Shown piece by piece: positions 24,640-52,937 of a stretch of 64,000 bases of DNA. Origin of the DNA: Antedon mediterranea (lineage: Eukaryota > Animalia > Echinodermata); assembly GCF_964355755.1 (NCBI RefSeq), contig NC_092674.1:16926001-16990000 (forward strand), written 5' to 3'. Below the pieces are notes generated by a model, which saw only the letters and a program-made list of their open reading frames with translations, did no database searches and was not told the origin of the DNA. The first letter of the stretch is position 1, and each line of letters opens with the position of its first letter. Both the position numbers and the translations under genes were made by a program.

Positions 24640-27600
24640 GAGGTATATTCAGAGCGTCATTTCGACGATCAAGCATTCTCTACTTCTACGGAGCGCCATT
24701 TATGCCTTTATTTACTTCTGAAATAGAAATAGTACTACGGTAGCTGCTCCAGTGGACCAAATTTAGCACCGGTGGAGCACAGTGATATAAAATAGAAAAA
24801 GTCACTAATTGTAATACCTTTTCGTATGTTAATACACTGTGCTCAAGTGGACCCAATTTGGAGCCTTGGGAGCATAGTGATATAAAATGGAAATAAGTCA
24901 ATGAATTTTAATATTTCGTATGTTAATACACTGTGCTCAAGTGGATCCAATTTGGAGCCAGTGGAGCACAGTGATATAAAATAGAAATAAGTCACTGAAT
25001 TTTAATATCTTTTCGTACGTTAATACACTGTGCTCAAGTGGACCCAATTTGGAGCCAGTGGAGCACAGTGATATAAAATAGAAAAAAGTCACTGAATTTT
25101 AATATTTTTTCGTATGTTAATACACTGTGCTCAAGTGGACCCAATTTGGAGCCAGTGGAGCACAGTGATATAAAATAGAAAAAAGTCACTGAATTTTAAT
25201 ATTTTTCGTATGTTAATACACTGTGCTCAAGTGGACCCAATTTGGAGCCAGTGGAGCACTGTGATATAAAATAGAAGTCACTGAATGTTAATATCTTTTC
25301 GTATGTTAATACACTGTGCTCAAGTGGACCTAATTTGGCGCGCGCGCCAGTGAGCACAGTGATATAAAATAGAAAAAAGTCACTAAATTATAATATCTTT
25401 TCGTATTTTAATACACTGTGCTCAAGTGGACCCAATTTGGCACCAATGGGAGCACAGGGAAAAAGTCACATACAAAAACATCGAGAAAAAATACTTCTGG
25501 AATTTAAAAATATTTCAAACTTGGTATATTTGTTCAATATCGGTTACTCCATCCGTAAACCAAAAGAAAAAATAGTTTCAAGCCACATCAGTGATTTTAA
25601 TAACTTGCGTAAGATAATACTTATGAAAAAACATACAATTACGACACATATATTAAACTCTAATAATGATTTTTACAACAAAAAACGGTTAGGAATTCGA
25701 TTTTTCCCTGTAAATTGAGCAACTAAAATAAAAAATATACCAAGAAATATATATTGAATTCGAGGTGTATTTTTTTTTTACAAAAGAAATGTTCGTATGT
25801 TAATACACTGTGCTCCAGTTGATCCAATTTGGCACCAATTGGAGCACAGGGAAATAGTCACATACAAAAACATCGAGAAAGAATACTTCTGGATTTCAAA
25901 AATATTTCAAACTTGGTATATAATGTTCAATATCGGTTACTCCATCTGTAAAGCAAAAGAAAAAATAGTTTCAAGCCATATCAGTGATTTTAGTAATTTT
26001 CGTTCGTTTAAAATGTATATTTATGATAGAACATAGAATTCCAACACATTTTTTAAACTTTAAATTTTGATCGTCATCAAATAATTGTCCTACACATTTT
26101 AAATTTGGTAGTATAGCCTACGTTCAATAGGTTACTACACGTTCAATAATGTTACTACATAATTCATATTTTTAACATATGTCTTTTTTTTAATCGCTAA
26201 AGTTTAAAAAAATGTGTTGGAATTTTATGTTCTTTCATAAGTATTTATCTTAGACAAACGCAAGTTATTAAAATCACTGATGTGGCTTGAAACTAATTTT
26301 TCTTTTGCATTACGGATGGAGTAACCGATATTGAACTTATATACCAAGTTTGAAATATTTTTGAATTCGATAAATAAAGTTTTTGTATGTGACTATTTCC
26401 CTGTGCTCCACTGGCGCCAAATTGGATCCACTGGAGCACAGTGTATTAACATACGAACATTTCTTTTGTAAAAAAAAAATACTCCTTGATTTCAATATAT
26501 ATTTCTAGGTATATTTTAAATTTAAGTTGCTCAATATTGAGAGACCACGTAAAATTGCACAACGTATTATTAAAGCTGATCTAACGCCTTGTTCATTTAT
26601 CTATGAAAAGAGTATTCTAAAAAAAGTAAACAATATTATGAAAGACCCCACTCATCCGTTACATTACTGTTATAACTTAAATAGATCAGGCATTAGGCTA
26701 CGACCTCCAAGAGCAAATCTTTGTAGAACTAGAAAATCCTTCGTTGTAAATAGCATTCATATTTTTAATTCTAATGTAAGACGTTAATGCAATTTTTAAT
26801 AGTTTTACATTTTTAACAGTATTTTTAACTTTTTATCTTGTATTTTTAATCTGTTATAATACTGCACGTTTTTAAATTTTTGCAATACTGTTGTTTTAAT
26901 CTACCAAGCAAAGTGAATTTCCATTTTTATGGACAAATAAAAATTTCTTGAATCTTGAATCTTGAATCAATTTACAGGGAAAAATCGAATTCCTAACCGT
27001 TTATTTTGTTATTAGAGTTTAACATAATATGTGTCGGATATGTTTTTTCATAAGTATTATCTTAATCGAACGCAAGTTATTAAAATCACTGATGTGGCTT
27101 GAAACTATTTTTTCTTTTGGTTTACGGATGGAGTAACCGATATTGAACATATATACCAAGTTTGAAATATTTTTTAATTCCAGAACTATTTTTTCTCGAT
27201 GTTTTTGTATGTGACTATTTTCCTGTGCTCCCATTGGTGCCAAATTGGGTCCACTTGAGCACAGTGTATTAACATACGAAAAGATATTAACATTTAGTGA
27301 CTTTTTTCTATTTTATATTACTGTGCTCACTGGCGCGCGCGCCAAATTGGGTCCACGTAAGCACAGTGTATTAACATACGAAAAGATATTAAAATTCAGT
27401 GACTTATTTCTATTTTATATCACAGTGCTCCCCTGGCTCCAAATCGGGTCCACTTGAGCATAGTGTATATTAAATTCGAAAAGATATTAAAATTCAGTGA
27501 CTTTTTCCATTTTATATCACTGTGCTCCACTGGCGCCAAATTGGGTCCACTTGAGCACAGTGTATTCACATACAAAAATATATTAACATTCAATGACTTA

Positions 27601-28049
27601 TTTCTATTTTATATCACTGTGCTCTCCTGGCGCCAAATTGGGTCCACTTGAGCACAGTGTATTAACATACGAAAAGATATTAAAATTCAGTGACTTTTTT
27701 TCTATTTTATATCACTGTGCTCCACTGGCTCCAAATTGGGTCCACTTGAGCACAGTGTATTAACATACGAAAAGATATTAAAATTCAGTGACTTTTTTCT
27801 ATTTTATATCACTGTGCTCCCCTGGCTCCAAATTGGGTCCACTTGAGCACAGTGTATTAATACGAAAAGATATTAAAATTTAGTGACTTATTTCTATTTT
27901 ATATCACTGTGCTCCACTAGTGCTAAATTTGGTCCACTGGAGCAGCTACCGTAGTACTATTTCTATTTCGTAAGTAAATAAAGGCATAAATGGCGCTCCG
28001 TAGAAGTAGAGAATGCTCGATCGTCGAAATGACGCTCTGAATATACCTC
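24640..28049. mobile_element. Foldback-type non-autonomous DNA element with about 1.4-kb modular inverted arms
   Basis: Termini GAGGTATATTC...GAATATACCTC; TAATATT on both sides; arms contain 97-bp tandem units; short unique centre at about 26060-26200. Confidence 0.88.
26536..26966 (+). mobile_element. 5'-truncated LINE 3' end (L2/Rex1-like) inserted in the right foldback arm
   Basis: C-terminal peptide (DPTHPLH...RSGIR...RKSFV), AATAAA, (CTTGAAT)n tail, TCAAT duplication; absent from the left arm. Confidence 0.75.
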
Positions 28050-28215
28050 TAATATTACCGTAGTTACAAAGTGGTTAGGATTAATTCCGGCAGAATCAAC
28101 GCAATTGATTGGTCAATTGAAAATCGCTCATGCATGCATATTTTTTATGAACCTCATTATTATTAAGATTAATCATAAACATATTAAAGTTAGACGGGGT
28201 AAAAAGAAATCTAAA

Positions 28216-30219: not shown

Positions 30220-32552
30220 CGAAAAAAAGCTTGTCGAGCACACCGACTTTATTGTAGGCCTAAGAACAAAACTAATTCTGACTTTAATGAAACTATAAGG
30301 GATAATCTCTGGAAAGATTATCAAATTAAACAAAACGAATGTAAAACATTAATTAGACAAAAAATGATGCAAATCCGGATGGATAGATGTTAAAAAATAA
30401 TGGAAAAAGGCGGACCTCAGTCTAGAGACTTCTTTTTAAAAGGGAATAAACGAGCGAACAGTGTTACATCTATAATAATTCCGGGAACGCACAATGTAAC
30501 ATCAGACGCACCCATAATTAAGTCCTCGTTAACGAATTACTTTAATACCTTAGGTAAGAAAAACTTAGATGTAGAGAATGATCTATTTGATGACAGTTTA
30601 GCTGACAGCTACAACACGAATGTTCAAACCGCTACTCTGGATAAACTCGAATTCTCATGTGAAGATGTAAAATACGCAGTCTCCCTATGTAAAAACAACA
30701 AAAGCCCGGGCAATGATAATATTTCTAACGAATTGATAAAAAACGGCGGTAATTACACAATGGTTGCAACACTGTATAAACTGTTTAAAAGGCTCTCTCA
30801 TCTCGAATGTATCCCAGATGAATGGAACAACGGCGCAATAGTATATTTAAAAAGGCGACCGGCGAAATTTAGATAACTATAGAGGAATTACCTTAAACTC
30901 ATGCATTGCTAAGATCTATAGTCGAATAATTTCTCGAAGAATATCAGAATTCCTTGAAGACTACGATTTATTAACCGAAGCACAATGGGGCTTCCGTAGA
31001 GATAGACGATGAGTAGTTAAATGGCGTTTATGGGCTGTTTTTACAAAATTGTAAATATTAGTCAGCTTTACAAAGTACTGAAGAGTAAATGACTACGGAA
31101 GTATGAAACAATAGGTATTGTGTTTCGGGGTATTATAACAATAGAGGTATTACCGTATATTATAATTTAAATTAGTTACATGCTATCGTGTTGTGTTGGT
31201 AACATTTAAAGTGGGTTAATTCAGTATGTTGGCTACTATATGCAGTATGATATAAATTGTACAACTTGTAGTCCAGTTTTACAAAGTACTGAAAAGTAAA
31301 TGACTACGGAAGAATAAAACAATCGTTGTTGTGATAGTATAAAATAGGTGTGATGTTTCGGATATATAACAATATAGGTATTATTTAATTTGATTACATT
31401 ACGTCATGTATTGTCGGAAATTTTAAAATTAACTTTCATTTTCATTTAAATGGTTTACGTTTTACATAAAGAATTCTTTGATAAAGATGCACCTGGTTAA
31501 TTAAAACTAGTTAATTGAGATATCGAACCCACATATAATTAATAAGGGTAATTTGTTTCCGGATATTATAACAATGACAAAAAACAAAAAGATAAGAATA
31601 AATGAAGTTAAATAATAAGTATGTCTTGATTGAACTATACCGACATCTAACGTGCATACCGGTATTGAACAAGAATTTGAAAACAGCAGTCTTAGCGGTA
31701 ACGAGGAATTTTTGTTAGAAATTCTTAATGACAACGATGAAATGGTAAGTTGAAGCAATTTGTATAAAAAAAAACACAAAAATTTACGTATATTATTTTC
31801 CAAATGTTATTAAGAATGACTTCTTTGTTCTGTCTGTTACATGGGTTTTGTTATTTAATTTTCAGATTCGATGTATAGAAGAGTTAATTGATGATCAGAT
31901 AAAAAATATTTGGTGATGATTTAGTCGTTTGTGATGAGAAAAAATGGTATACAATGGTTGAAGTCAATAGGTGTTATGTTTCGGATATAATATTACAATG
32001 GTTAACATTGGGTAAGGAAGTATAAGATTGTTGTAAGATTTGAATTAGTCATGTACTTGGCGGTATTTTTAAAAAGGGGTACAATAAAAGATGCTCCTGG
32101 TTTAATTAAAACAACGTAACAACATAAGTTATTTGATCAGGATATTATAACAATGACTAAAACAAAAAGTTAAGAGAATTTAGTACAGTTTTCATCAGTA
32201 TGAACTTCTGCAAACCAACAGCTGATTACGCCGATTCTAAAATAGCTGATAAGGCTAAGGCTAGTATGCAGCGAGTTATGAGAAAACGGTTTGATCTTTG
32301 ATGATTTTGGATCGGACATTTTTTAAATTGAATGACATTGGGGAAGCTACTTAATGAAACAAAAGATACACGGCGCTTCGACACAATGTTCCGACAGGAA
32401 ATACAACAATGACAATTGGCTGAAACAAATTTGGTAAATGCCGAATGTAATCCTTTGACTGTATATAACTCTCGAATATTTTGTAATCTTTACCTCATTC
32501 TACAACGCTACAGAGCTCGACAAGACAGACCAAAAACCAACAACTAGTTACT

Positions 32553-33281
32553 ATGGGTTCCGTGATTGAAATAATTGATCTTACTATGGACTCTGATGTC
32601 GAAGAAGATGTTATATATATAAGCAGTGATTCAGAATTTGAAGACGAAGACATACTAGCTATGACTGGTGCCTATTTTACAGCAAAGGAGGAGGAAGAGA
32701 TGAGGGAAGAGATGGGGGATATGACGTGTTTAATGGCGATTCAACCCCCACCTCCAATGAACGTTGATTTCAATAATGTATCTAATACTGAAGAAGACGA
32801 ACATTATAGATCGAGAATAATTTCTGAAGAGGAGAGGATTGTATACGACGACACGTCATCGGTAGTTGACTACCACCTATTTCTGGCAAGAAAAGCCGAT
32901 GTAGAAGATGAGGTAGAAGATGGGGTGTTTGCGGAAGAGTACCTGAACCCTGTGCTGGAGGCGGAGATTAAGAAAGAAACTACCGAACTTGAGTACAAAG
33001 AGATAATGAGAACAATTGAGAAGGTTTTCATAGAAGAATTTATATTCATTCTGAAGGACATGGTTGAACGTTATAACTTTCACGGCTCAAGATATGAACA
33101 ACTCCTAACATTTTTTCGACCAATTCTGGCATTGAAACTTGTGGACAATAGCGCTACCCATTTTGAATGGGCGCTAAACTACTTTCATTTACGTTGTATA
33201 AATGTTGATGCGTTTGCTAAAGCCATAAAGTTGATTACAAATGATTCAGAACTTTTTAATAAGATTCTTTACCAATTGTAA
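32553..33281 (+). CDS. 242-aa acidic protein with N-terminal SIM-like motifs (left arm copy)
   Basis: Intact ATG-initiated ORF, richer in GC than its flanks; TATATAA at about 32462; motifs VIEIIDLT and VIYISSDSE. Confidence 0.75.
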   Translation: MGSVIEIIDLTMDSDVEEDVIYISSDSEFEDEDILAMTGAYFTAKEEEEMREEMGDMTCLMAIQPPPPMNVDFNNVSNTEEDEHYRSRIISEEERIVYDDTSSVVDYHLFLARKADVEDEVEDGVFAEEYLNPVLEAEIKKETTELEYKEIMRTIEKVFIEEFIFILKDMVERYNFHGSRYEQLLTFFRPILALKLVDNSATHFEWALNYFHLRCINVDAFAKAIKLITNDSELFNKILYQL

Positions 33282-33535
33282 TTTGTACAAATTTAAAATA
33301 ATATCTTAACACTTTTTTTAATTAATGTTACATATTTTTATATTTCTTATTTCTTTTCGGTAAATTTATTATTATTATGGTTGTAAATTATATTGAAATA
33401 GAATATGTGTTAAAATAAAGGTTGTGTTTTTTCTTTTAAAAGCAACAACAACGAAAATGAATTTGATCTTTGCGTGTTATTTAAGTATTTTATTTATTTT
33501 TTTAATTTTCATTTGGGTGAATGAGGGTAATGAGT

Positions 33536-33778
33536 ATGGATGAGTACTTAAGAAAAGTATATTATTACGATCCTAAGCATCCTGATAGTTTTGCTGGTGT
33601 AGACCGACTTTATCAAAATGTAAAATACGATTTAAATATTACCAAGAGACAAGTTCAAGACTGACTGAGCAAGCAAGATACATATACATTACACAAATCC
33701 ATTCAACGTAAATTCAAACGAAACTGGGTACTTGTAAGTGTTATTGATGAACAATGGGGAATGGATTTGGAAAAATAA
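33536..33778 (+). pseudogene. Polinton/Maverick integrase N-terminal remnant
   Basis: MDEYLRKVYYYDPKHPDSFAGVDRLY...VQD*LSKQDTYTLHK...FKRNWVLVSVIDEQWGMDL; one in-frame TGA; truncated just after the first catalytic Asp motif. Confidence 0.85.
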
Positions 33779-35205
33779 CGTGTATAAAATTTGATTCAGA
33801 CAAACTGTTTGACTTTAAATTTCCAAAAATCAAAGGAAGTCAATTTTGAAATAGTTGGTAGCATGGTACAAGGAATCGGACTGGAAAAAATAACAACAAC
33901 TAATCCTAACAAAATAACCCGTAAACCAAAATCTCACTCTCTACCATTCAAAAACAACATTTTTGATGTAGCAATTTTTTCAAGCGGTATTGTCATGAAC
34001 GTATTGAAAAGAAAATAGTTTTATTGTCAATGATTTGTCAAGTGTTTTATTTTAATTTCAATTACTTTTGTATTGTATTTAGTTTTACCCGTTCATGTTG
34101 GCATGATCAATATTTGCTCAAACTCCATTTTATCGTTATGTTTGTAGTATTTTAGAGCTTCCCGATCATCGTAATAATGATATAACTAGAATTCGTAACC
34201 GTGTGTTAGATTCCACGCGTATTATATTATACATATTGTCTTACTTTAATTCCTTCTCTCGTTATTCACCCGATGTAGTTTGATCAAACAATTGTACCTG
34301 AGCCTGAAAGGTTAGTTGTTATGGTACAAGGAATCGGCCCGGAAAATAATTTGTTTTCTTTTCTGTTAAATTATTATTATGTTTGTGAATTGTGTATTGC
34401 AATAGATTTGTTTAATGAAATTAAATTAATTAGGCCTATGTTTTGACTTAATTTACTGTCAGTGTAAATTTGTAAAAGTAGTTTTCCTACTTTAATTCAC
34501 GGTAAATTTATTTATCGACTTAATTTAATTTGTTTTCTTTTCTGTTGTTGTTAAATGTAATTGCAAACACACATAATAAATGATTGTGATTATAAATATT
34601 CTGTTTACTTCTTTTAATTTTAAACAGTACAATAGATCTGTAATGTAAAGTTATATTTTATATAATATAATAAGTAATATTACAAAAATAAACATACAAA
34701 ATGTATAAAGCATAGATTAATTAAATTTAAATACAATTTCTTTATTTCAAAATGAATTTCATTTTCTACGTGTTTTCAATTTTAAATCTTTTAAGAAAGA
34801 CACAATACGTACTGCTAAAAAAATAAAACGCACACAAAAGAAAACAAATTTGAGACGCACGATATGTAACGACGGTTTCAATAAAAAGGCATATTATAAA
34901 TGTATTTTTACCAAATTTATAAAGTAAAGGGTTATTATTGAGAAATATACATTTTAGATAAATGATAACACATCTAAAATTAATTAGAGAGATCAATACA
35001 ATATGGTGTTCATAATAATTTGTTTTGATGACTAGAGGAAACATCTGAAGATATTCAACAAAAAACAAGCGTTAACAACATACCAGTCACTAAGAATGCT
35101 ACTACTCTGAAAAAAACATCTCCCTTCAAACACAGAAACAAATTCTGTTAATTAGTAAACGAAACACGCGCATTATAAATAAAATGAATAATTTAAGAAT
35201 ATTTG

Positions 35206-35603
35206 TTAAAATACCCACGAACAAAACAAAAAAAGAAACATACTAACCGATTTATCGTCATTACGAAGTTCAAATAACGAAAACTTTTCCTTGAAAAATC
35301 CACAAGAGACACGTTTTACATTTTCTAACTGCATTTCAGTGTCACATTGTTTCGCAACACATGTACATAAAACGAGTCCTGTCACAAATCTGCCGACATT
35401 TATTTTTTTATCGCTCATCATTTGTTCTAATACATAATACAGCGATTCTGAAGAAATATCTTTACACAATTCTAACACATTAAAATTGTTTTCCAACTCT
35501 TTACAAGCACGAATAGTACTCTGGAGGATGGGTGAATCCAAAACAATTAACCCCGTCAATTTATATTCAATGTATGTTAAACTACTTCCTCTAAATCAAC
35601 CAT
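35206..35603 (-). CDS. Bcl-2-like protein (about 132 aa), with a 1-nt frameshift near the N-terminus as sequenced
   Basis: BH4-like LEEVV(L)TYIEYKL after adding one base at 35579-35581; BH1-like LEQMMSDKKINVGRFVT; hydrophobic C-terminal tail. Confidence 0.65.
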
Positions 35604-35691
35604 AACGCTCGACAAAACAAATGATAATGGATGTAATTACCAAGAAAGTTACAACTTAAAACATTTATTTTTGTTTTTAAAAAGAAGTTGT

Positions 35692-35854
35692 ATTTGTGTA
35701 ATGTATATGTATCTTGCTTGCTCAGTCAGTCTTGAACTTGTCTCTTGGTAATATTTAAATCGTATTTTACATTTTGATAAAGTCGGTCTACACCAGCAAA
35801 ACTATCAGGATGCTTAGGATCGTAATAATATACTTTTCTTAAGTACTCATCCAT
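35692..35854 (-). pseudogene. Shorter copy of the integrase remnant in the right arm
   Basis: Reverse complement of 33536-33698, with the same TGA. Confidence 0.8.
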
Positions 35855-36108
35855 ACTCATTACCCTCATTCACCCAAATGAAAATTAAAAAAATAAATAA
35901 AATACTTAAATAACACGCAAAGATCAAATTCATTTTCGTTGTTGTTGCTTTTAAAAGAAAAAACACAACCTTTATTTTAACACATATTCTATTTCAATAT
36001 AATTTACAACCATAATAATAATAAATTTACCGAAAAGAAATAAGAAATATAAAAATATGTAACATTAATTAAAAAAAGTGTTAAGATATTATTTTAAATT
36101 TGTACAAA

Positions 36109-36837
36109 TTACAATTGGTAAAGAATCTTATTAAAAAGTTCTGAATCATTTGTAATCAACTTTATGGCTTTAGCAAACGCATCAACATTTATACAACGTA
36201 AATGAAAGTAGTTTAGCGCCCATTCAAAATGGGTAGCGCTATTGTCCACAAGTTTCAATGCCAGAATTGGTCGAAAAAATGTTAGGAGTTGTTCATATCT
36301 TGAGCCGTGAAAGTTATAACGTTCAACCATGTCCTTCAGAATGAATATAAATTCTTCTATGAAAACCTTCTCAATTGTTCTCATTATCTCTTTGTACTCA
36401 AGTTCGGTAGTTTCTTTCTTAATCTCCGCCTCCAGCACAGGGTTCAGGTACTCTTCCGCAAACACCCCATCTTCTACCTCATCTTCTACATCGGCTTTTC
36501 TTGCCAGAAATAGGTGGTAGTCAACTACCGATGACGTGTCGTCGTATACAATCCTCTCCTCTTCAGAAATTATTCTTGATCTATAATGTTCGTCTTCTTC
36601 AGTATTAGATACATTATTGAAATCAACGTTCATTGGAGGTGGGGGTTGAATCGCCATTAAACACGTCATATCCCCCATCTCTTCCCTCATCTCTTCCTCC
36701 TCCTTTGCTGTAAAATAGGCACCAGTCATAGCTAGTATGTCTTCGTCTTCAAATTCTGAATCACTGCTTATATATATAACATCTTCTTCGACATCAGAGT
36801 CCATAGTAAGATCAATTATTTCAATCACGGAACCCAT
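36109..36837 (-). CDS. 242-aa acidic protein (right arm copy, identical protein)
   Basis: Identical translation; one synonymous TCG/TCA difference seen. Confidence 0.75.
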   Translation of the reverse strand: MGSVIEIIDLTMDSDVEEDVIYISSDSEFEDEDILAMTGAYFTAKEEEEMREEMGDMTCLMAIQPPPPMNVDFNNVSNTEEDEHYRSRIISEEERIVYDDTSSVVDYHLFLARKADVEDEVEDGVFAEEYLNPVLEAEIKKETTELEYKEIMRTIEKVFIEEFIFILKDMVERYNFHGSRYEQLLTFFRPILALKLVDNSATHFEWALNYFHLRCINVDAFAKAIKLITNDSELFNKILYQL

Positions 36838-39800
36838 AGTAACTAGTTGTTGGTTTTTGGTCTGTCTTGTCGAGCTCTGTAGCGTTGTAGAATGAGGTAA
36901 AGATTACAAAATATTCGAGAGTTATATACAGTCAAAGGATTACATTCGGCATTTACCAAATTTGTTTCAGCCAATTGTCATTGTTGTATTTCCTGTCGGA
37001 ACATTGTGTCGAAGCGCCGTGTATCTTTTGTTTCATTAAGTAGCTTCCCCAATGTCATTCAATTTAAAAAATGTCCGATCCAAAATCATCAAAGATCAAA
37101 CCGTTTTCTCATAACTCGCTGCATACTAGCCTTAGCCTTATCAGCTATTTTAGAATCGGCGTAATCAGCTGTTGGTTTGCAGAAGTTCATACTGATGAAA
37201 ACTGTACTAAATTCTCTTAACTTTTTGTTTTAGTCATTGTTATAATATCCTGATCAAATAACTTATGTTGTTACGTTGTTTTAATTAAACCAGGAGCATC
37301 TTTTATTGTACCCCTTTTTAAAAATACCGCCAAGTACATGACTAATTAAATCTTACAACAATCTTATACTTCCTTACCCAATGTTAACCATTGTAATATT
37401 ATATCCGAAACATAACACCTATTGACTTCAACCATTGTATACCATTTTTTCTCATCACAAACGACTAAATCATCACCAAATATTTTTTATCTGATCATCA
37501 ATTAACTCTTCTATACATCGAATCTGAAAATTAAATAACAAAACCCATGTAACAGACAGAACAAAGAAGTCATTCTTAATAACATTTGGAAAATAATATA
37601 CGTAAATTTTTGTGTTTTTTTTTATACAAATTGCTTCAACTTACCATTTCATCGTTGTCATTAAGAATTTCTAACAAAAATTCCTCGTTACCGCTAAGAC
37701 TGCTGTTTTCAAATTCTTGTTCAATACCGGTATGCACGTTAGATGTCGGTATAGTTCAATCAAGACATACTTATTATTTAACTTCATTCATTCTTATCTT
37801 TTTGTTTTTTGTCATTGTTATAATATCCGGAAACAAATTACCCTTATTAATTATATGTGGGTTCGATATCTCAATTAACTAGTTTTAATTAACCAGGTGC
37901 ATCTTTATCAAAGAATTCTTTATGTAAAACGTAAACCATTTAAATGAAAATGAAACTTAATTTTAAAATTTCCGACAATACATGACGTCATGTAATCAAA
38001 TTAAATAATACCTATATTGTTATATATCCGAAACATCACACCTATTTTATAATATCACAACAACGACTGTTTTATTCTTCCGTAGTCATTTACTTTTCAG
38101 TACTTTGTAAAACTGGACTACAAGTTGTACAATTTATATCATACAGCATAGAGTAGCCAACATACTGAATTAACCCACTTTAAATGTTACCAACACAACA
38201 CGATAGCATGTAACTAATTTAAATTATAATATACGGTAATACCTCTATTGTTATAATACCCCGAAACACAATACCTATTGTTTCATACTTCCGTAGTCAT
38301 TTACTCTTCAGTACTTTGTACAGCTGACTAATATTTACAATTTTGTAAAAACAGCCCATAAACGCCATTTAACTACTACGATGTGAAGAGCATAATATCT
38401 TCACCCCCGGGCTTCACCCTTAAAAGCTTGATAGCTACTCGACAAGCCGAGGGTAAAAAGACATTTTTGGCTTTTCTCGATTTCCGAAAAGCATTCGATA
38501 CAGTCTGGAGAGAAGGACTAATAAAAGCATTACATCGAATCGGTATAAAGGTAACCTAATTAAATAATATCGTAAAATTTATATGAGAATGTTAAATGTA
38601 AGGTCCAATTTGCTAATTTAGAGACGGAGTTATTGATATCGATGAAGGTGTTAGACAGTGATGCTCGTTATCTCCAACACTCTTCTCAATATACATCAAT
38701 GAATTACTAATGAACTAATAATGCTTAACAACTCAGATCTAGGTGTTAACATCTTTAACACTAAAATTAATTGTTTACTATAACCGACGACGTCGTGCTA
38801 ATAGGAGAAAACGAGAAAGAACATAAAATTCTGCTACAAACTACTACAGAATTCGCTAAACAAAGGAAAATGTCATTTAATTATGATAAATCAATGTCCT
38901 TATCACAGGACAAAGGACCAACTTATATAGAAAATGGAGGTTAGGAAACAATTCTATAACAGAAACTGATAAATACAAATAATTGGGAGTATTACATTTC
39001 TCGCACGTTGTCGGACAATCTTCACGACGAAGTTATCAAGAAGGGTAATCGCATCATTGCGTATAGTAAATCCATTATAAATGAACAAGACGATTATAAC
39101 AGAATTTATTACGGGGACCTATTATGGAAATCTATCGGAATCCCTACCATTAATTACGCATGCTCAGTTTGATACTGTAACGGAAAAACAACAATGGCAA
39201 AAGTTGAAAACCTGCAGTTTTTAATGGCGAGAACCATTCTTCAGGTTCCGCGTAACGTTGCACAAGAGCTCTATACGGTGACTTGGGCTGGCAATCACTA
39301 GAATCGCTTCAAAACTACTCCAATGTGATTTTTAACGCCATAAACATTCTTGAAGATAAATTTAAATGGGGATGGTTAAATCAAGTTAAAGAAGCCGTAC
39401 ATAAATGTAACATGGGTGATATGTTCACCAACGAATCACCCGGTAATTGGTTAACCCAATTTAAATGCAAGAACAAAGATATCGATAATAACGAATGGCA
39501 AAAGAGAGCACAATCAAAATCATCTCAGCTCTGGCACAGTGTTGTACAAGAATAAACCGATGCTAGAACCATACCTTCTTTACAAAAATGACTTCAAAGA
39601 AGTTGTTTGAAATTTAAGGCGAGATCTAACTCTCTAAACCTTGAAGGTAGGGAACAGTCATGGTCACCCATGAATACGGGTGTGTGTGCACTCTGCAATA
39701 ATGACACTGAAACTATCGCACACTTTATGCTAGAATGTAATACATTTAGTAAATTAAGAAAAGAAACCTTCTACCCAATGAAATTACAATTAATGAATAA

Positions 39801-40365
39801 CGGGTTTGAACATTAATGGAAATCTTTCTACGAAGGAACCTCTGAAATGAAATTACATTTGTTTTTGACTTGGCTTGTAAAAAGTACCTACAAAGTGCCT
39901 GGGATACCCGGTTAGATATATATAAGAAATTACCAACATTACCCCAATAGCCTATTTGGCTTTTACATTGTGTTACGGGCTCGCTCGTTAGGCTGAAACC
40001 AACAATAAGAACATAACAAAACACGTTGTAGTTGTCGTCCATCTTTATTCATCCCTCTCTTTTACTCTAGAGGGCTCACTTCCGTGTGACAAACTCATCA
40101 CACACCCCCACTTAAAGAAAGTTTGATATGATTAAACTTATAACTGTTTACTATAACATCTTAAATCTTTTCTTATACAGTAGTTATTTTAACAGGTCGT
40201 TGATATGAATTTACTTCAACTGCTTCTTTAAAATTTCACAAGTTCTAATTACTTTAAATCCGTGTATGCCATTAATGCATCACTCTATCACAACTAACAT
40301 ATTATAATTAACTAAACACTTTAAAAATCAACAAAACTTTTAAAATCATTTCATGCATGTTTTAT

Positions 40366-40929
40366 CTAAACTCTTGACAAAGCGTCAGCTACAACATTGT
40401 CTTTTCCTCTGATATCATGAATTTCCAGATTCATTTCTTGAACTGCTAAACTCCATCTCAACAAGCGTTGATTCTTGTCTTTCATTCTTGCCAAGAACGT
40501 TAATGGGTTGCTGTCAGTCCAAACTATAATTGGAAACGGAGTAGACCCAAGATACACTTCAAAGTGCTTTAACGCTGACATCAAAGCTAATGTCTCCTTC
40601 TCAACAGAATAACGCTTCTCATGCTGGTTGAATTTTTTCGAGTAGAAACACACAGGCTTGTCAACACAATTCTCGTCTGTTTGCGCCAACACAGCACCAG
40701 AACCAACATCACTGGCATCAATCATTAACGAGAACTGTTTATCAAATTGTGGAGCCATCAACACCGGTTCGTTTGATAACATCGCTTTAACTTTAATGAA
40801 CGCATTATTGCATTCCTCCAACCACACAAAGCTCGCATTCTTTTTCAGCAGATTCGTTAATGGAGCTACAAGCGTGGAGAAACTTCTGCAAAAACGTCGA
40901 TAAAACCCAGCCATTCCCAGGAAACGCAT
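40366..40929 (-). CDS. RT thumb / RNase H segment of Gypsy 1 (frameshifted)
   Basis: FLGMAGFYRRF, DASDVGSG, WTDSNPL, NVVADALSR. Confidence 0.9.
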   Translation of the reverse strand: MRFLGMAGFYRRFCRSFSTLVAPLTNLLKKNASFVWLEECNNAFIKVKAMLSNEPVLMAPQFDKQFSLMIDASDVGSGAVLAQTDENCVDKPVCFYSKKFNQHEKRYSVEKETLALMSALKHFEVYLGSTPFPIIVWTDSNPLTFLARMKDKNQRLLRWSLAVQEMNLEIHDIRGKDNVVADALSRV

Positions 40930-41087
40930 TTACTCCTGCTTACTCTTTGGAACTGGGAAATCACAGACTGCCTTAATCTTAGCACTTAATGGTTTCACTT
41001 TTCCGCAACCAACTTTATGACCTAAGAACACAATTTCTGCACAGGAAAACTCACTTTTCACCAAATTTACTGTCAACTTTGCAGCTG

Positions 41088-44000
41088 CTAACCTGTCAAA
41101 AATGCCTTAATTCTCTGCACATGGACATCCCATGTATCACTATAAACAACCAAATCGTCTATATAAGCTTCACAGCCCTCCAACCCTGAAATTATACCAT
41201 TAACCAATCTCTGGAACGTGGCTGGTGCATTCTTTAAACCGAAAGGCATGACTTTATACTGATAAAGACCCATAGGAGTTACAAAAGCTGACACTTTCGC
41301 ACGCTCTGTTAAAGGAATTTGCCAGTAACCCTTTAGAAGATCAAATTTACTGACAAACTTAGCACTACCCACACGATCAATACAGTCGTCTATCCTCGGT
41401 ATAGGATATGAATCTGTAGTAGATTTAGCATTAACCTTCCGATAATCAGTACAAAAACGATACGATTTATCTGGCTTTGGAACTAATATACATGGAGAAC
41501 TCCAAGCACTGCAACTAGGCTCAATTATATCATTCTTAATCATGTAATCAATCTCATTTTGTAATATCTTCATCTTGAACGGATTTGCTCTATATGGATT
41601 TTGTTTTATTGGTGAACAATCAGCTGTCTTAACGTCATGCTCCACTAAGTTCGTTCGACCTGGAACATCGGAAAACAACTGCAGATTTTCAAATATCAAA
41701 CTAACAATTTCAACCTTACGATCACGAGATAAATGACCAACTTTGTCTTCAATGTTTGCAAGGACATCTGAATTACTGAACTTAACACATGTATCAGGAT
41801 CCCCAAACTCTTTAGAATTCTCTTCAACAACACACGTAACTGGTGTTGACGTACAGGTATCAGTATTATTTCTCGCTGTGTATGGTTTCAACATGTTTAT
41901 ATGACACAGTCGCTTCTTCTTACGCCTATCTGGAGTATCTAACACATAGTCAACTTCTCCTACTCTTTCTAATACTTTGTAAGGACCAGCAAATCTTGCA
42001 GATAATGGTTGACTGGGAAGAGGCAACATAACTAACACTTCATCACCTGAACTAAAGCTTCTCTTTTCTGATTTCCTATCAAACAATCTCTTCATTTTAC
42101 CCTGAGCCTTCACAAGATTCTTTCTAGCCATCTCACGAGCACGATTTAATCGATCACCAAATTCAGACACATAATCTAGTATCGATACAGACTCTTCTGC
42201 ATTCCTTAACAGCCTTTCTTTGACTATTTTAAGAGGGCCTCGGACCGAATGACCATACACCAACTCAAATGGGCTAAACCCTAAGGACTCTTGCACTGTT
42301 TCACGAACAGCGAATAACAATAAGGGAACTCCCTCATCCCATTCCTTTTCACATTGAAAACAATAGGTTTTAATCACATTCTTAAGTGTTTGATGAAATC
42401 TCTCAAGTGCCCCTTGAGACTGTGGATGGTAAGCACTTGAACTTATAAGGGCAACACCTAACTGCTCTAAGACTTGTTTAAATATCTTTGACATGAAGTT
42501 TGATCCTTGATCGGACTGAACAGCTTTAGGCAATCCTACCCATGTAAAGAATTTTACCAATGCTTTAACAACATTCTTAGCTGTAATACGCCTAAGAGGA
42601 ATCGCTTCTGGAAACCTACTTGATGCACACATTATTGTTAATAGATACTCATTTCCATTTTTAGTACGTGGTAATGGACCCACACAATCAACAATAACCC
42701 TTGAAAATGGTTCACCGAATGCAGGAATAGGCCTAAGTGGGGCTACTGGAACCTTTTGATTAGGCTTCCCAACTACCTGACACGCATGACAGGATTTACA
42801 ATAGTTAGACACATCTTTTCTAAGACCTGACCAAAAGAAATGCCTGAGAATTTTGTCTACCGTTTTATTGACACCTAAATGCCCTGAAAGAGGATCATCA
42901 TGCGCAATACCAATAATATCCTGACGGTATCTACTAGGAATAACTATCTGGTGAATCTCATTCCAAACATCACTACTTGGAATATCTGGTGGCCTCCACT
43001 TACGCATAAGTATGCCATCCTTTATATAATAACAAACAGGAACAATAGACATTTCCTCTACAGAAAGAGCTTTCTGACCAGATGACACCAAATCAGGATC
43101 TTTACTCTGCTCTTCCACTAACCTGGACCGATTGAGAACTGTCGGACCGAAATCACACACTTTTGGGTGCTGTTGTTCAGCCTGGGCAGTGTGTGACTCG
43201 GGACCTGAGCAGACAGCCTCTTGGGAAACGCGATCCGTAATGTCTCCGTAAAAACTATCACATAAGTCAATACTCTCATCCTCATCTATGGTTATATTTG
43301 CCATAGATCGCGTCACCGCACATGATGGAAACACATGTGATAATTCTTTCTCTAAACACACCGTGCTTTCGTCTTCAACAGGACTCTTGCACACAACCGG
43401 TTCTACTGTCACTCTGTCTCCGGCCAAATCATTCCCCAAAAGGAGTGTGACACCCCATACTGGAAGACTCGGAACGACACCGACAACAAAATCTCCGCTA
43501 ACAATATCTGTTTCAATCCGAATTACATGAAGTGGGACTTCCTTATAACCCCCTTCAACACCTTGAATGAGCACACTTGCTCCAGCAGAAGACTCGTTTG
43601 AAAATGACAATGCCGATTCTATTATCAGGGATTGTGACGCCCCTGTGTCTCTTAAGACACGAACTTTACTCAGATTCACATCGTTGATCAATGCTACAGA
43701 ACCAGTAGAGAGGAAAGGCTTAAATAGCTTTCGCACTTTTTCCGGACCTGAAGATTGGATCAACTTCTCACATTCATTAACGTCATGACTCGCTGTGTTT
43801 GGAAGTGATTGGGGTTTCTTATTATCCCCTTTAGATTTGCTTTGAAACAGCCAGCAATCTGCCTTTATATGACCCTTTTTCTTGCAGTAAAAACAAGTTC
43901 TGACAAATTTACTACTACTATTAACTGTAGTTTTCTGACTTTGGACCTTAGAATCATCAACAGATTTGGAAACCGATTTGGTATCCACCACCTTGTGCGT

Positions 44001-44381
44001 GAGCACATAATTATCGGCAACAGAAGCCGCTTTCATTAAATTATCAACTTTTTGCTCCTCTAGATATGTTCGAACTTCAGTAGGGGAACAAGATTTAAAC
44101 TCCTCAACTAACATAAGCTCACGAAGCTTTCCAAATTCTCCCTTTACTCCTTCCGAACTACACCATCTATCAAAAAGAATCTGCTTCTTACGTGCAAATT
44201 CTGTAAACGTTTGATCATAAGGTTTACCTAAGTTCCTAAATTTCTGACGATACGCCTCTGGAACTAACTCATAAGCTGACAAAACAGCAGTTTTAACCGC
44301 ATCATAGTTTTCACATTGATCATCAGCCAATGCAGAAAATACCTCTTGGGCTTTACCCACAAGAGCAGTTTGTAACAACAC
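41088..44381 (-). CDS. Gmr1-like polyprotein segment: SCAN-like gag, CCHC, protease, integrase, RT
   Basis: YELVPEAYRQKFR; CFYCKKKGHIKADC; LRDTGA; GHLGVNKT..CHAC, DCVGP, SDQGSNF, ERFH; GPY; then YIDD. Confidence 0.93.
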   Translation of the reverse strand: MLLQTALVGKAQEVFSALADDQCENYDAVKTAVLSAYELVPEAYRQKFRNLGKPYDQTFTEFARKKQILFDRWCSSEGVKGEFGKLRELMLVEEFKSCSPTEVRTYLEEQKVDNLMKAASVADNYVLTHKVVDTKSVSKSVDDSKVQSQKTTVNSSSKFVRTCFYCKKKGHIKADCWLFQSKSKGDNKKPQSLPNTASHDVNECEKLIQSSGPEKVRKLFKPFLSTGSVALINDVNLSKVRVLRDTGASQSLIIESALSFSNESSAGASVLIQGVEGGYKEVPLHVIRIETDIVSGDFVVGVVPSLPVWGVTLLLGNDLAGDRVTVEPVVCKSPVEDESTVCLEKELSHVFPSCAVTRSMANITIDEDESIDLCDSFYGDITDRVSQEAVCSGPESHTAQAEQQHPKVCDFGPTVLNRSRLVEEQSKDPDLVSSGQKALSVEEMSIVPVCYYIKDGILMRKWRPPDIPSSDVWNEIHQIVIPSRYRQDIIGIAHDDPLSGHLGVNKTVDKILRHFFWSGLRKDVSNYCKSCHACQVVGKPNQKVPVAPLRPIPAFGEPFSRVIVDCVGPLPRTKNGNEYLLTIMCASSRFPEAIPLRRITAKNVVKALVKFFTWVGLPKAVQSDQGSNFMSKIFKQVLEQLGVALISSSAYHPQSQGALERFHQTLKNVIKTYCFQCEKEWDEGVPLLLFAVRETVQESLGFSPFELVYGHSVRGPLKIVKERLLRNAEESVSILDYVSEFGDRLNRAREMARKNLVKAQGKMKRLFDRKSEKRSFSSGDEVLVMLPLPSQPLSARFAGPYKVLERVGEVDYVLDTPDRRKKKRLCHINMLKPYTARNNTDTCTSTPVTCVVEENSKEFGDPDTCVKFSNSDVLANIEDKVGHLSRDRKVEIVSLIFENLQLFSDVPGRTNLVEHDVKTADCSPIKQNPYRANPFKMKILQNEIDYMIKNDIIEPSCSAWSSPCILVPKPDKSYRFCTDYRKVNAKSTTDSYPIPRIDDCIDRVGSAKFVSKFDLLKGYWQIPLTERAKVSAFVTPMGLYQYKVMPFGLKNAPATFQRLVNGIISGLEGCEAYIDDLVVYSDTWDVHVQRIKAFLTG

Positions 44382-44431
44382 AGTTCAGTGTCTAGCAGGC
44401 CACTTTAATCTATTAGCAATTTTCTCAAAAG

Positions 44432-44875
44432 CTAAAAAATATGTCTGTACCTCGTCCTCATTAAACTTGGGAACCCAATATTCTGAGTAATCTCTGAATC
44501 ATTAGGTGTAGAAACCCGTGTGGTGTGACCCATTTGGTTAGCTAATTCTAATTTCCTTAACTCAAATTCATGTTTTTCTTTTTCCATTTCTCTTTGAGTT
44601 TGCATCTCTATTTTTCTTCTTTCAAAAATCAATTTTTCACGTTCCAACTCAATTCTAGCCAACTCGACCTCATTCCCCGCAGTTTTTACGGATTCATGAG
44701 TAATTAAACCAACATGATTTCCAATCACATTTATCAAGTCATATTTATTCATGGAATCATTTATAGATGCTCCAACCCTAGTACCTAGGAGTCGCAAACG
44801 CTCCTCTGATAGCTGAGCTACCACCTCAATGGACATGCTATCCAAAAATTCCTCGTCAAAATCACTTTCTGACAT
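44432..44875 (-). CDS. Gag N-terminal coiled-coil segment of Gypsy 1 (frameshifted)
   Basis: ORF 44432..44923, likely start MSESDF, E/R/K-rich stretch, directly upstream of the polyprotein. Confidence 0.7.
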   Translation of the reverse strand: MSESDFDEEFLDSMSIEVVAQLSEERLRLLGTRVGASINDSMNKYDLINVIGNHVGLITHESVKTAGNEVELARIELEREKLIFERRKIEMQTQREMEKEKHEFELRKLELANQMGHTTRVSTPNDSEITQNIGFPSLMRTRYRHIF

Positions 44876-46878
44876 AGTTTCTATTCGAAACAAACAAACA
44901 AAAACACAGGTTAAAATAACCAATATGACGATAATTAAGGCACCAGTAATAAATTACCTGCCAAGCCCACACAGTATTAAACCTACCGTGCGCCGTGGTC
45001 TCAATAACTAGACCCCTAAAATCAAAGCCAAACCGACTTCTACTATCACAGGCAAGCCTACACAAGCCTAAAACAACAACACAGTGTACTGGCTCGACGA
45101 CCGCCAAACCTCGTTCGTTATAAAACGCCTCTAAACCTAAAACCAGCTTAGAATAAGTAACTAAAATTACCAGTTCGATCTACAACTACAATTCCGCACT
45201 TTGTTCCCGGATGACCCCCCAATTTGTTACGGGCTCGCTCGTTAGGCTGAAACCAACAATAAGAACATAACAAAACACGTTGTAGTTGTCGTCCATCTTT
45301 ATTCATCCCTCTCTTTTACTCTAGAGGGCTCACTTCCGTTTGACAAACCCATCACAATTGTAATATAATGTTGCGTTGTTGAGGTACTAATGAAGACTCT
45401 GACTCGCTTGACTGTCGTAACACATTGTTTATTCAGTATAATACTTCAGTACAATATACAACTATAAGTATAGATAAGGACGGAGGATCAATGATGCTGT
45501 CGGTGAGGTGTGAAGTGTGTAGGTCTGCTTCTGAAGAAGTGGCTGTGAGGTGTGTGCTCCGTGAAGTGGCTGTAAGGTGTGTCTGGGCCCTTCTGAAACT
45601 TGGGAGTATATTGGCTCAGTTCATTTGCATAATGTCATTACATCATTTATGGAGCTAATGATTGGTCCTAAGTTGATCCAGGGGTGTTTAAGTGGGAATG
45701 ATTGATCTTATCTGGGGAGGTTACAATGATGAATTGGCCCTGTCGAATCTCTGCTTAAAACTGTCAGTATCTAATTGTTTTACGATGGGAACGGTCGCAA
45801 AGTTAAGCTAAGTGTTTTCTTTAGGGACTCTATTATAAACTAAATGGTCATTAAAACATCTGGACAAACTCTCCTCTGGACTTTCTGGGTCAAGTTCGTG
45901 AACCTATTTGAATTCCGATACAAAGGTCAATTTCTTAAATATAAAAGTATATCGTTATATTACATCCCTCTGTTTCTCTTTTTTTTTTTCTAATCTATTT
46001 AACATATAAAATGGTTATAATAGTGGCATGCAAAATTAAAGTTATATTAAAAGAAAAAAAAACATTATTATACATATAAGCAAAAATTGAGTTAGCCAAA
46101 ACCATTGACTCTGAAGTGTAACCTTATCACTTTCACTCTCTCTCTTCTCTCTCTTAAAAAAATGAAATTAAAAATGAATTTGGTATAAAATTCGCGTAAA
46201 TCAAACATAAATCGGTTAAAAATAAAATACAAAACTTAAAAATAGTATGTTACATTGAACATACGTCAATCAAATCGTGCGACAACTCATCGCGTTCTAA
46301 TGGTCTTCAAACATAAATCATCAAATCAAAACATAAAACTCAAGAAAACTGTGGCTGATTAGCCTAAAATCAAAATATCAAACTTAATCACTTAAAACTT
46401 TAAAAGAAACAAATGTGTGTGTCCCGTTGACACAAACTTATCCACAATATGTCGTTATCGTCACAACTTTATCGATTTAAGCATTTATATTCACAGGTAA
46501 TTACGATTTCAATCGGTCGACAAATTCGACTTTTGTACTCAATGTCAAAACAAAATTACAATTAAAAGTACTAAGAAAATCTCCTGTTATTGTATATCAA
46601 TTAATTAATGCTTGAGATTAACGACTCAAAGGTTAAACAAAATATTTGTTACAAAATGGTTGTCGTTCTTTTCAATATCTCAATATATCGATCATCAAAA
46701 TTCAAATTTAATCTTTATCAAAAAACTCGTTACAAAATCAATACTTAAACATAAATTCAATTCTCTTTTAACTGAAATCACATCATTACTAAACAAATCT
46801 CATCAAAAATACGTAGACTATGCTATCATTAATTTAGCAAATGTCGTAATTTAAAAATAATCTTGCAAAAAAATTAAA

Positions 46879-51492: not shown

Positions 51493-51584
51493 ATCAATAT
51501 TATCTGAATTCCCTAAGTATTTTGCCTTAAAATTGTCGTATTTAGTATGGGGGGCCAGATTATAGGCGGCATCTAGTCCCCTTT

Positions 51585-52545
51585 TTAAAAATCCTGCTGG
51601 TGGCTAGGGTAGTAATTGTTTGACTGTTGGTATGGGTATGGCGGGGGATAGTTTCCGTAAGAGCGGTTTTGTTGTCGGCAGTGCCTTGCTATGTGGCCTG
51701 GTTTCCCGCAGTAATAACAGGTTGGGGGAGGTTGTCTATATCTTGGGGTCGGTGGGGTCTGGAATCGGGGTTTGTATGGGCTTGGGCTTCGGTTTCGTCT
51801 TGGGATATAATTTCGGGTGGGGGGAACGTGAGCGTCGAGTATCATCATTAAGGGATCGTTTTGTTGTGGCCATGTCTAACTTGAGAAAATTTATCTCATG
51901 TTGGAGCGATTCGAGACTATTATCTGTTTCCTTATTGATATTGAATGAAACTTCCCGTGTGGCATCATCTACGGAAAGATCAAGGTAGTTTTGTGTGCTA
52001 TTTACGATATTGTCAATAGTGGCATCGATTGGGGTGGACATGGCTACAGCTGCTCTACATTTTGGTGGAAGGGTCGAAATAAATTTATTCTTTATCTGCT
52101 GGTCAGCGTATCCAATTCTGTCTGCGGCTTGTTTGATTTTGGTTAAGTGCTTTTCGGCGGTGTCGCCAGTGGTGTATGTAATTGAATCGTATTCTCTTAT
52201 GTGCGCATATATTGATTTGTTTTTACTAAACCTGTTGATGAATTGGGTTTTTAAGGATTCTAGTGAATCGAACTGCTTTCCCTCAATCCAGAGTCTAGCT
52301 TGGCCCTGAAGGCTACGTTTGAAAATACTTATTACATTAATTAATTGGGCATTGTTTACAGGGTTTTCTAAAGTGTGGGCCTCAAGGTAGTCGGTAAACG
52401 ATAAGTAATGTGCACTACATTGGTCGTGATCGGTTATGGAACCGTCATATCTTTTGGGAAGGAAATCGGTTTGTCTTAGGTGGGGCACGGGGTGAGGATT
52501 GACGGGCTCATTTAAAATTACTTCGTTATCAACAATGTCGACCAT
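51585..52545 (-). CDS. Gypsy 2 Gag, with a 1-nt frameshift in the G run at 51819-51824
   Basis: ORF 51736..52545 (SLQGQARLWIE capsid-like) plus ORF 51585..51848 (CYYCGKPGHIARHC). Confidence 0.85.
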
Positions 52546-52937
52546 ACTTTATAATATTAATTATTAATCAAATATCAAAAACAATTTAGTGTATATATAT
52601 GTAAACTCTCACTTTTTCAATCAAGGTTACAAATCAAAAATCAAAATGGTTTTGACTTACCCCAAATGCTTCGGATCCAATTAAAAATGAATTAAAGGAA
52701 TGCAAAAAGTGTTCAAAATTGTTTAAATGTTCAAACAACGAATTAAAGAAAATGTTAAAGTGCTCATCAATGTTCAACTTTTCAAACAACGAATTCAAAA
52801 AAATGCGAAAGGTGTTCATCAATGTTAAAAAAAAGTAAATGTTAAAAAAAACGATCGAAGAAAAAAAAACGGCGTGAAGTTGAAAGTGTCCAAACGAAAC
52901 AGTTCTTGTCCGCTTGCTTCTGTTTTGATTCTGCTTG

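What the first reader, a model, noticed from the sequence alone, without database searches (positions are those of the whole stretch)
31012..38377. Minimal Polinton/Maverick that lost its replication and virion genes but kept a host-control cargo inside giant inverted repeats
Seen: AGTAGT termini, a clean 6-bp TSD (ACGATG) inside a LINE RT, about 2.69-kb arms making up roughly 73% of a 7.37-kb element, a dead integrase stub, an intact SIM-rich ORF in both arms and a Bcl-2-like gene in the 2-kb centre. I see no pPolB, ATPase, protease or capsid sequence. Known: autonomous Polintons are about 15-20 kb or more, with TIRs usually of a few hundred bp to about 1 kb. Inference: this is a satellite or defective-interfering-like element mobilised in trans by a helper Polinton, retaining only SUMO- and apoptosis-modulating genes, an early-gene pairing reminiscent of adenovirus E1A/E1B-19K.
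Basis: partly seen in the sequence, partly recalled or inferred. Interest (0 to 1): 0.85.

Follow-up and report, generated by a model that had tools for sequence, protein, structure and literature searches.

The report
Stripped Polinton copy with extended arms
This is a 7.4-kb copy of a virus-like jumping element (Polinton/Maverick) with a dead integrase and two mirror-image 2.7-kb arms; its relatives are longer, so the giant arms were likely built by DNA repair after it inserted, and the copy is probably a damaged member of a helper-dependent family, not a streamlined mini-virus.

Summary
The anatomy is confirmed: AGTAGT/ACTACT ends, a 6-bp duplication inside a LINE, arms of 2,687 and 2,686 bp (73% of 7,366 bp, 10 differences), and a dead Polinton-type integrase stub. 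Trans-mobilisation holds up at family level: the most abundant contigs of public runs share the integrase stop (2 runs) and its truncation (2 runs). The 'minimal mobile unit' reading does not hold up. In five runs under four organism labels, the centre continues past 35692 into other DNA, and no listed contig crosses into the right arm. The arms have two ages: 8 of 10 differences lie in the outer 589 bp (permutation p = 0.0007). This best fits an ordinary ~0.6-kb terminal repeat that was extended in place by repair copying, as described for Drosophila Galileo. A deletion from a larger palindrome and an assembly chimera remain open. The Bcl-2-like gene (Pfam E 7e-5, below cut-off) is frame-broken in this copy. 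The 242-aa SIM-motif protein is an orphan without E1A hallmarks. No genome, long reads or confirmed RNA were available.

The parts
31006..31011 (.). left target-site duplication ACGATG
   Evidence: single in an empty LINE copy
31012..38377 (.). Polinton/Maverick-derived element, 7,366 bp, (AGT)2...(ACT)2 ends
31012..33698 (+). left arm, 2,687 bp; continues natively into the centre
   Evidence: X9 contig bridges 33596-34420
31012..31645 (+). older outer segment, candidate native terminal repeat (about 0.6 kb; inferred); holds 8 of the 10 arm differences and 211-bp-spaced subterminal repeats
   Evidence: contigs of X1, X6 and X9 leave the arm behind 31645
32200..32486 (+). decayed ORF-like stretch with the same stops in both arms; no family found
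32553..33281 (+). 242-aa orphan ORF: acidic N-terminal half with two SIM-like motifs (residues 7 and 20), helical C-terminal part
   Evidence: no homologue
33533..33778 (+). dead Polinton-type integrase stub: stop at 33662-33664, truncated after 81 codons; crosses the arm boundary on the left side only
33699..35691 (.). unique centre, 1,993 bp, 28% GC
35206..35595 (-). Bcl-2-like reading frame, frame-broken near its 5' end (about 35580) in this copy
   Evidence: indel against contigs of 5 runs
35691..35692 (.). centre-to-right-arm joint, one shared base; not seen in listed contigs
35692..38377 (-). right arm, 2,686 bp; inner 2.05 kb differs from the left arm at 2 sites
36109..36837 (-). second copy of the 242-aa ORF (one synonymous difference)
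37744..38377 (-). right older outer segment, candidate native terminal repeat (inferred)
38378..38383 (.). right target-site duplication ACGATG
30394..31011 (+). 5' part of the interrupted, decayed LINE reverse transcriptase
38384..39816 (+). 3' part of the interrupted LINE (RT motif, zf-RVT)

Best explanation
This is one inserted copy of a Polinton/Maverick derivative with a dead integrase, likely inserted by a helper's integrase as a longer element with probably ordinary ~0.6-kb terminal repeats, whose right interior was likely later replaced in place by an inverted repair copy of about 2 kb of its own left interior. Steps: (1) shown: Polinton ends, 6-bp duplication, dead integrase that is the majority form among relatives; (2) inferred: insertion by an integrase supplied in trans; (3) shown: relatives continue past 35692 into other DNA, and the arms have an old outer and a young inner part; (4) inferred: a break in the right interior was repaired by the right terminal repeat invading the left one, copying inward through the 242-aa gene into the integrase stub, and rejoining at 35692 with one shared base; (5) inferred: the copy has been decaying since insertion, while the family keeps the 242-aa gene and probably the Bcl-2-like gene as accessory cargo, predicted from motifs alone to bind SUMO and dampen cell death.
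For: Ends, duplication and empty LINE site. Integrase identity. At the stop position only 67.5 of 870 summed depth in X1 and 0 of 61 in X5 differ from the window. The truncation is shared: X6 record 22 has 0 differences over 33726-33968, and X9 record 29 bridges 33596-34420. The deepest contigs stop matching at 35692 and go on in the same non-arm DNA in X1, X5 and X11 and in X6 and X9. Arm differences: 8 in the outer 589 bp and 2 in the inner 2,098 bp; permutation p = 0.0007; about 28 expected inside at the outer rate. Window-specific letters in the inner arm (32210, 32433, 33002, 33594; all four runs differ) are shared by both arms, while outer ones (31244, 31600) sit on one arm only. Contigs of X1, X6 and X9 leave the arm behind 31645, 45 bp inside the last clustered difference. 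A 0.6-kb repeat matches published sizes (mean 402 bp, range 46-1,447; PMC8097293). The same repair model is proposed for Galileo (PMC3573991). In X6 and X9 the 242-aa gene is not deeper than the centre (2,004 vs 2,290-2,607; 34 vs 10-48), a weak hint.
Against: No genome is held, so no parent, no native right end and no second insertion site was seen. Contigs drop rare variants, and the tables were cut (24 of 57 pieces and 12 of 18 loose ends shown; 32 of 687 and 24 of 222). The departure at 31645 may be a variant subterminal cassette, since one such contig returns to 31541. The outermost 450 bp are not deeper than the interior in any run, and are much shallower in X6 and X9, although a terminal repeat should be double. 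Equal depth of arm and centre also fits a larger palindromic parent. In X1 the 242-aa gene is 1.2 to 2 times deeper than the Bcl-2 region (563 and 990 vs 486). An assembly chimera predicts the same two-age pattern. No helper with shared ends was identified.
Confidence: 0.5

Rival explanations
1. The family is a larger palindrome whose arms include the Bcl-2 gene. This copy lost its middle by an asymmetric deletion, and arm-to-arm gene conversion has since evened out the inner arms.
For: Arm and centre have similar depth in X6 and X9, and the termini are not double depth. One-base joint. Arm conversion and central asymmetric deletions are known for palindromes (PMC8327919 passages). Unchecked scan notes describe Bcl-2-carrying palindromic Polinton families in other genomes (e1-7804823, e1-7803435).
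Against: It needs two events where the best explanation needs one. The edge of the old segment falls at a typical terminal-repeat length and next to the place where contigs of three runs leave the arm.
Confidence: 0.2
2. One reading: the 7.4-kb giant-armed layout arose in a replicating element (copy-back or terminal duplication) and is itself a mobile satellite at several sites.
For: Intact ends and perfect duplication on both sides. Terminal duplication is known in linear DNA viruses (MVA-CR19, PMC11680203). Unchecked notes report multi-copy giant-armed Polinton families elsewhere. Contigs hide rare forms.
Against: The joint is in no listed contig of X1, X5 or X11, and X6 and X9 show the other continuation. 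Arms born together should differ evenly; they do not. The Bcl-2-like gene is broken here.
Confidence: 0.15
3. The insertion is real, but the inner 2 kb of the right arm is an assembly chimera (fold-back read or repeat mis-routing) that replaced the true right interior.
For: It predicts the same old-outer, young-inner pattern and the missing joint in short-read contigs. No contig that bridges the LINE-element boundary was listed either.
Against: The inner arms differ at two sites, so one is not a literal copy. The window holds 1,574- and 1,098-codon open frames and an LTR pair with 2 differences in 606 bp, which suggests a careful assembly. Long reads could span 7.4 kb. The sequencing method is unknown.
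Confidence: 0.12

Closest known systems
Polintons/Mavericks (adintoviruses) of animals; PMC8097293 and PMC8502044, passages read
   Same: (AGT)2//(ACT)2 ends, 6-bp duplication, rve-plus-chromo integrase family, Bcl-2-type accessory gene (reported for adintoviruses).
   Different: 7.4 kb vs 12.7-24.6 kb; arms 2.69 kb vs 46-1,447 bp; integrase dead; no pPolB, ATPase, protease or capsid frame in this copy.
Galileo '2RT' copies of Drosophila mojavensis with extended terminal repeats; PMC3573991, passages read
   Same: Sequence just inside one terminal repeat appears inverted before the other, in non-autonomous copies; repair templated on the other repeat is the proposed cause. The paper states that repeat expansion was also reported for Polintons, citing Jurka et al. 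2007 among others (not read).
   Different: Galileo is a P-superfamily cut-and-paste element with repeats up to 1.26 kb; here about 2 kb with a whole gene and part of the integrase was recruited.
Poxvirus terminal duplication, MVA-CR19; PMC11680203, passages read
   Same: One end is mirrored onto the other with loss of the replaced end; duplicated sites are kept identical.
   Different: That happens in a replicating virus; here the two-age arms point to an event after integration.
Non-autonomous Polintons (Kapitonov and Jurka 2006; recalled, paper not held)
   Same: Ends kept, core genes lost, moved in trans.
   Different: Not compared in detail; an orphan SIM-motif gene as cargo was not found in my searches.
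Adenovirus E1A / adintovirus 'Oncoid' proteins; PMC8502044, passages read
   Same: Acidic, motif-rich accessory protein near a genome end, beside a Bcl-2-like gene.
   Different: No LxCxE, no PxDLS, no paired CXXC; no sequence or fold link found.

Membership tests
Polinton/Maverick (by descent) | 6-bp target-site duplication | tested here: met
   ACGATG on both sides; single in an empty LINE copy
Polinton/Maverick (by descent) | (AGT)2//(ACT)2 end motif in terminal inverted repeats | tested here: met
   motif as in PMC8097293
Polinton/Maverick (by descent) | retrovirus-like c-integrase homologue | tested here: met
   46 of 54 candidates, about 360-aa rve-plus-chromo proteins, best 78% identical; remnant only
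Autonomous Polinton/Maverick | intact integrase | tested here: not met
   stop at codon 44 and end after 81 codons
Autonomous Polinton/Maverick | protein-primed polymerase, ATPase, protease and capsid genes | tested here: not met
   no stop-free stretch over 129 codons apart from the 242-aa gene; no such Pfam hit in six element ORFs; small decayed remnants were not searched by tblastn
Mobile non-autonomous family with this 7.4-kb layout | same centre-to-arm joint in other copies | tested here: inconclusive
   absent from listed contigs of X1, X5, X11; X12 laid nothing; contigs drop rare forms
Mobile non-autonomous family with this 7.4-kb layout | several insertion sites with different 6-bp duplications | not testable with these tools
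   no genome held
Non-autonomous Polinton family (any layout) | dead integrase shared by abundant copies | tested here: met
   stop shared in X1 and X5; truncation shared in X6 and X9
Non-autonomous Polinton family (any layout) | autonomous helper with shared ends | tested here: inconclusive
   less abundant, 88-90%-alike integrase contigs that run further exist (X6 record 21; X1 record 4); their ends and other genes were not seen
Bcl-2 family | Pfam PF00452 at the curated cut-off; BH1-like motif | tested here: inconclusive
   E 7e-5, 23.7 bits vs cut-off 31.4; sole PDB hit is the fowlpox Bcl-2-like FPV039, E 0.092; 0 of 4 candidates; not folded
E1A / Oncoid proteins | LxCxE Rb-binding motif with paired CXXC | tested here: not met
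   no LxCxE; two unpaired cysteines in the sequence
SUMO-interacting proteins | hydrophobic core followed by acidic/serine run; SUMO binding | tested here: inconclusive
   two motifs, shuffle p 0.003-0.005 with a recalled pattern chosen after seeing the sequence; binding untested
Galileo-type repeat extension | interior sequence next to one repeat duplicated inverted before the other, from a short-repeat parent | tested here: inconclusive
   layout met; short-repeat parent only inferred

The most novel reading that the evidence does not exclude
An integrase-dead Polinton satellite family has spread to high copy number in several related animals while keeping an orphan tandem-SIM protein and a Bcl-2-like gene under selection, and it generates giant-armed forms that a helper can still move. 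It would be a cargo-bearing satellite of an endogenous animal DNA virus that supplies anti-silencing and anti-death functions in exchange for transport.
Probability: 0.25. Interest if true: 0.72.

Novelty: new variant of a known kind. Interest (0 to 1): 0.42.

Why it matters
The two-age arms record how a giant inverted repeat can form on a Polinton, which bears on the origin of the palindromic Polinton derivatives that this scan keeps reporting and that my five literature searches did not find described. The family itself, with a dead integrase shared across four organism labels and an orphan SIM-motif gene that shows no indels in the listed contigs, is the better target: it would test whether helper-dependent Polintons keep host-control genes. 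This single copy is damaged and probably not the functional unit.

Tried and rejected
No genome was held, so the copy-number and helper searches could not be run. Homologue searches for the 242-aa protein were blank: 0 of 391 candidates, 0 in 1.84 billion representatives, 0 of 4 stretches in viral contigs. The one metagenome locus, L001 (1 of 105 stretches), is a bacterial oxidase gene with a chance peptide match and was dropped. AlphaFold2 without alignment gave pLDDT 35 for the whole protein and 52 for the C-terminal 106 residues; fold searches gave nothing at E <= 0.001 and a best Z of 5.2, which is no evidence either way. My recalled idea of a death-effector domain got no support (0 Pfam families). 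The ETV6 hits come from triple-repeat fusion constructs at about 5 bits per repeat and were rejected. The ESM Atlas gave no answer. DNA patterns from the terminus and from 35641-35669 had 0 matches in viral contigs; a relative integrase gave 0 loci there. No RNA holder was listed; X5 is only guessed to be RNA, so expression is untested. X12 laid 0 contigs; runs with small shares were not used. Depth figures are summed contig depths, not copy numbers, and are used as hints only. No earlier scan note exists for this genome or sequence. Kapitonov and Jurka 2006 was not held. Supplementary Figs S1-S2 of PMC8502044, which may show Bcl-2-bearing elements, were not opened.
Full report
1. Observation. 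The element runs from 31012 to 38377 with AGTAGT and ACTACT ends and ACGATG on both sides. The arms are 31012-33698 and 35692-38377 and differ at 9 substitutions and one single-base indel. They are 72.9% of 7,366 bp. The flanks translate as the two halves of one decayed LINE reverse transcriptase. Two contigs of run X1 pass from 31011 into right-flank-like LINE sequence, and a 1,990-base X5 contig also leaves the stretch at 31011. So the hexamer is a real duplication. These contigs differ slightly from the window and may be other LINE copies. The host is an animal; the named integrase relatives are mostly from oysters but only 44-51% identical, so the host is not identified.

2. Genes. The stub at 33533-33778, read with X at its stop, hits 46 of 54 candidates, mostly 360-aa rve-plus-chromo integrases, best E 7e-31. 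It has a stop in both arms and is truncated after 81 codons. It crosses the arm boundary only on the left, so the left side is the native order. The 242-aa ORF (32553-33281) is open in both arms. It has two SIM-like motifs in its first 30 residues (shuffle p 0.003-0.005; pattern recalled and chosen after seeing the sequence), but no LxCxE or PxDLS and no homologue in four searches. The centre frame 35206-35595 matches Pfam Bcl-2 at E 7e-5, below the cut-off, and its only PDB hit is a poxvirus Bcl-2-like protein at E 0.092. It is likely Bcl-2-like. In this copy it is frame-broken near 35580: the first in-frame ATG is residue 59. Contigs of all five runs that cover the spot differ from the window by an indel there, in X6 in about half of the summed depth, so the break looks private to this copy or is a sequencing error. 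Whether other copies are open end to end was not tested. No other stop-free stretch exceeds 129 codons.

3. The family. No genome is held. Of 20 listed sequencing runs, 18 hold part of the left arm and centre, from 8 studies and organism labels A-E. I laid 6 different runs in two calls. All four runs cover arm and centre. The dead integrase is the majority form: at the stop position only 67.5 of 870 summed depth differs in X1 and none of 61 in X5. The truncation is shared by X6 (0 differences over 33726-33968) and X9 (one contig over 33596-34420). An element with a long-dead integrase and a clean 6-bp duplication was most likely inserted in trans (inference). Less abundant contigs, 88-90% alike, run further along the integrase (X6 record 21, X1 record 4) and are helper candidates only. 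Summed interior depth exceeds the LINE flank about 2- to 7-fold in X1 and X5 and 10-fold or more in X6 and X9; the tool warns that this is no copy number. Joints in X1 that skip the stub or parts of the centre show a modular family. The listed contigs have no indel inside the 242-aa gene while its neighbours do, and 3 of 5 differences checked are synonymous (4 from the 40 of 291 rows shown, 1 between the arms). In the Bcl-2 frame I classed 10 of the 16 listed differences up to 35640 (two beside the break and four outside the frame left out): 4 synonymous, 6 not. Of the five where X1 and X11 agree fully against the window, 4 are non-synonymous. These counts are small; they hint at selection in the family and decay in this copy.

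4. The giant arms. In X1, X5 and X11 the deepest contigs match up to 35692 and go on for 89-115 bases in the same DNA, unlike the right arm; arm-side contigs go on as the left integrase continuation. X6 and X9 show the same onward DNA. No listed contig crosses the joint (24 of 57 pieces shown; X12 laid nothing). Contigs drop rare forms, so this shows that the layout is not the common one, not that it is absent. The joint shares one base. The arms have two ages: 8 differences in the outer 589 bp and 2 in the inner 2,098 bp (permutation p = 0.0007 over all cut points; about 28 expected inside at the outer rate). Letters at which all four runs differ from the window are shared by both inner arms (32210, 32433, 33002, 33594), but lie on one arm only at 31244 and 31600. 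So the inner arms were copied or converted after the copy had begun to mutate. Contigs of X1, X6 and X9 leave the arm behind 31645, a candidate native repeat edge of 634 bp; one of them returns to 31541, so a variant cassette is also possible.

5. Mechanism. Best supported (0.5): a longer, helper-moved element with ~0.6-kb repeats inserted into the LINE; a later break in its right interior was repaired on the left repeat, copying about 2 kb inward, and rejoined at 35692. The same model is proposed for Galileo copies whose repeats recruited interior sequence (PMC3573991, passages). Rivals: asymmetric deletion from a larger palindrome plus arm conversion (0.2; PMC8327919, passages; suggested by unchecked notes e1-7804823 and e1-7803435); the layout as a mobile unit (0.15); assembly chimera (0.12). 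Against my reading: termini are not double depth, equal arm and centre depth fits the palindrome rival, and the chimera predicts the same age pattern.

6. Known and new. Ends, duplication and integrase place it among Polintons by descent (PMC8097293, passages). It fails the test for an autonomous member. Bcl-2 homologues are already reported in adintoviruses (PMC8502044, passages). Arms of 2.69 kb exceed the published 46-1,447 bp and 100-1,500 bp (10.1101/2023.08.22.554363, passages). Repeat expansion in Polintons is mentioned in PMC3573991, citing a review I did not read. Passages of PMC3014272, PMC6431247, PMC11680203 and 10.1101/2024.01.15.575659 were also read. Five searches (listings only) showed no paper on palindromic non-autonomous Polintons with such cargo; most subscription papers and Repbase are not searched. 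Non-autonomous Polintons as such are recalled from Kapitonov and Jurka 2006 (not held). Scan notes from other genomes report similar giant-armed elements; they are unchecked and are not independent support.

7. Verdict. A real Polinton-derived insertion and a real integrase-dead family; this copy is probably a rearranged, decaying member. New variant of a known kind; interest 0.42.

Noticed in passing
window 24633-28057: A second inverted structure: arms of about 1.09 kb at 92% identity built from ~97-bp tandem units, with further inverted pieces in its middle; the same units lie at 10751-11463. Looks like a foldback-type element.
   Followed up: partly
window 45359-53885: Young LTR retrotransposon: LTRs differ at 2 of 606 bp, with a 1,574-codon pol-like frame and a 270-codon gag-like frame.
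   Followed up: no
window 31046-31427 and 31481-32170: Subterminal repeats in the arm: a 211-bp-spaced pair and a module spaced about 580-600 bp; joints in the runs show that its copy number varies among relatives.
   Followed up: partly
window 31124, 31557, 32136 and mirror positions: A 19-bp motif recurs three times per arm and nowhere else in the window (6 matches, 0.55 expected; the pattern was drawn from these copies, so the count is biased). Possible promoter or protein-binding site.
   Followed up: partly
window 31590-31915: Possible small two-exon ORF with a GT-AG intron at about 31745-31866, seen by eye; most X6 and X9 depth skips 31646-31990.
   Followed up: no
window 31012-31460: In runs X6 and X9 the outermost 450 bp are about tenfold or more shallower than the interior, which suggests that the abundant relatives there have diverged ends. 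Unexplained.
   Followed up: no
window 33350-33413 / 34355-34415 and 33852-33888 / 34313-34346: Short direct repeats at cassette borders in the centre, near joints where relatives skip or repeat segments.
   Followed up: no
window 39967-45356: Gypsy-like element on the minus strand with a 1,098-codon frame (SCAN, zinc knuckle, integrase before RT) between ~135-bp direct repeats at 98% identity.
   Followed up: no
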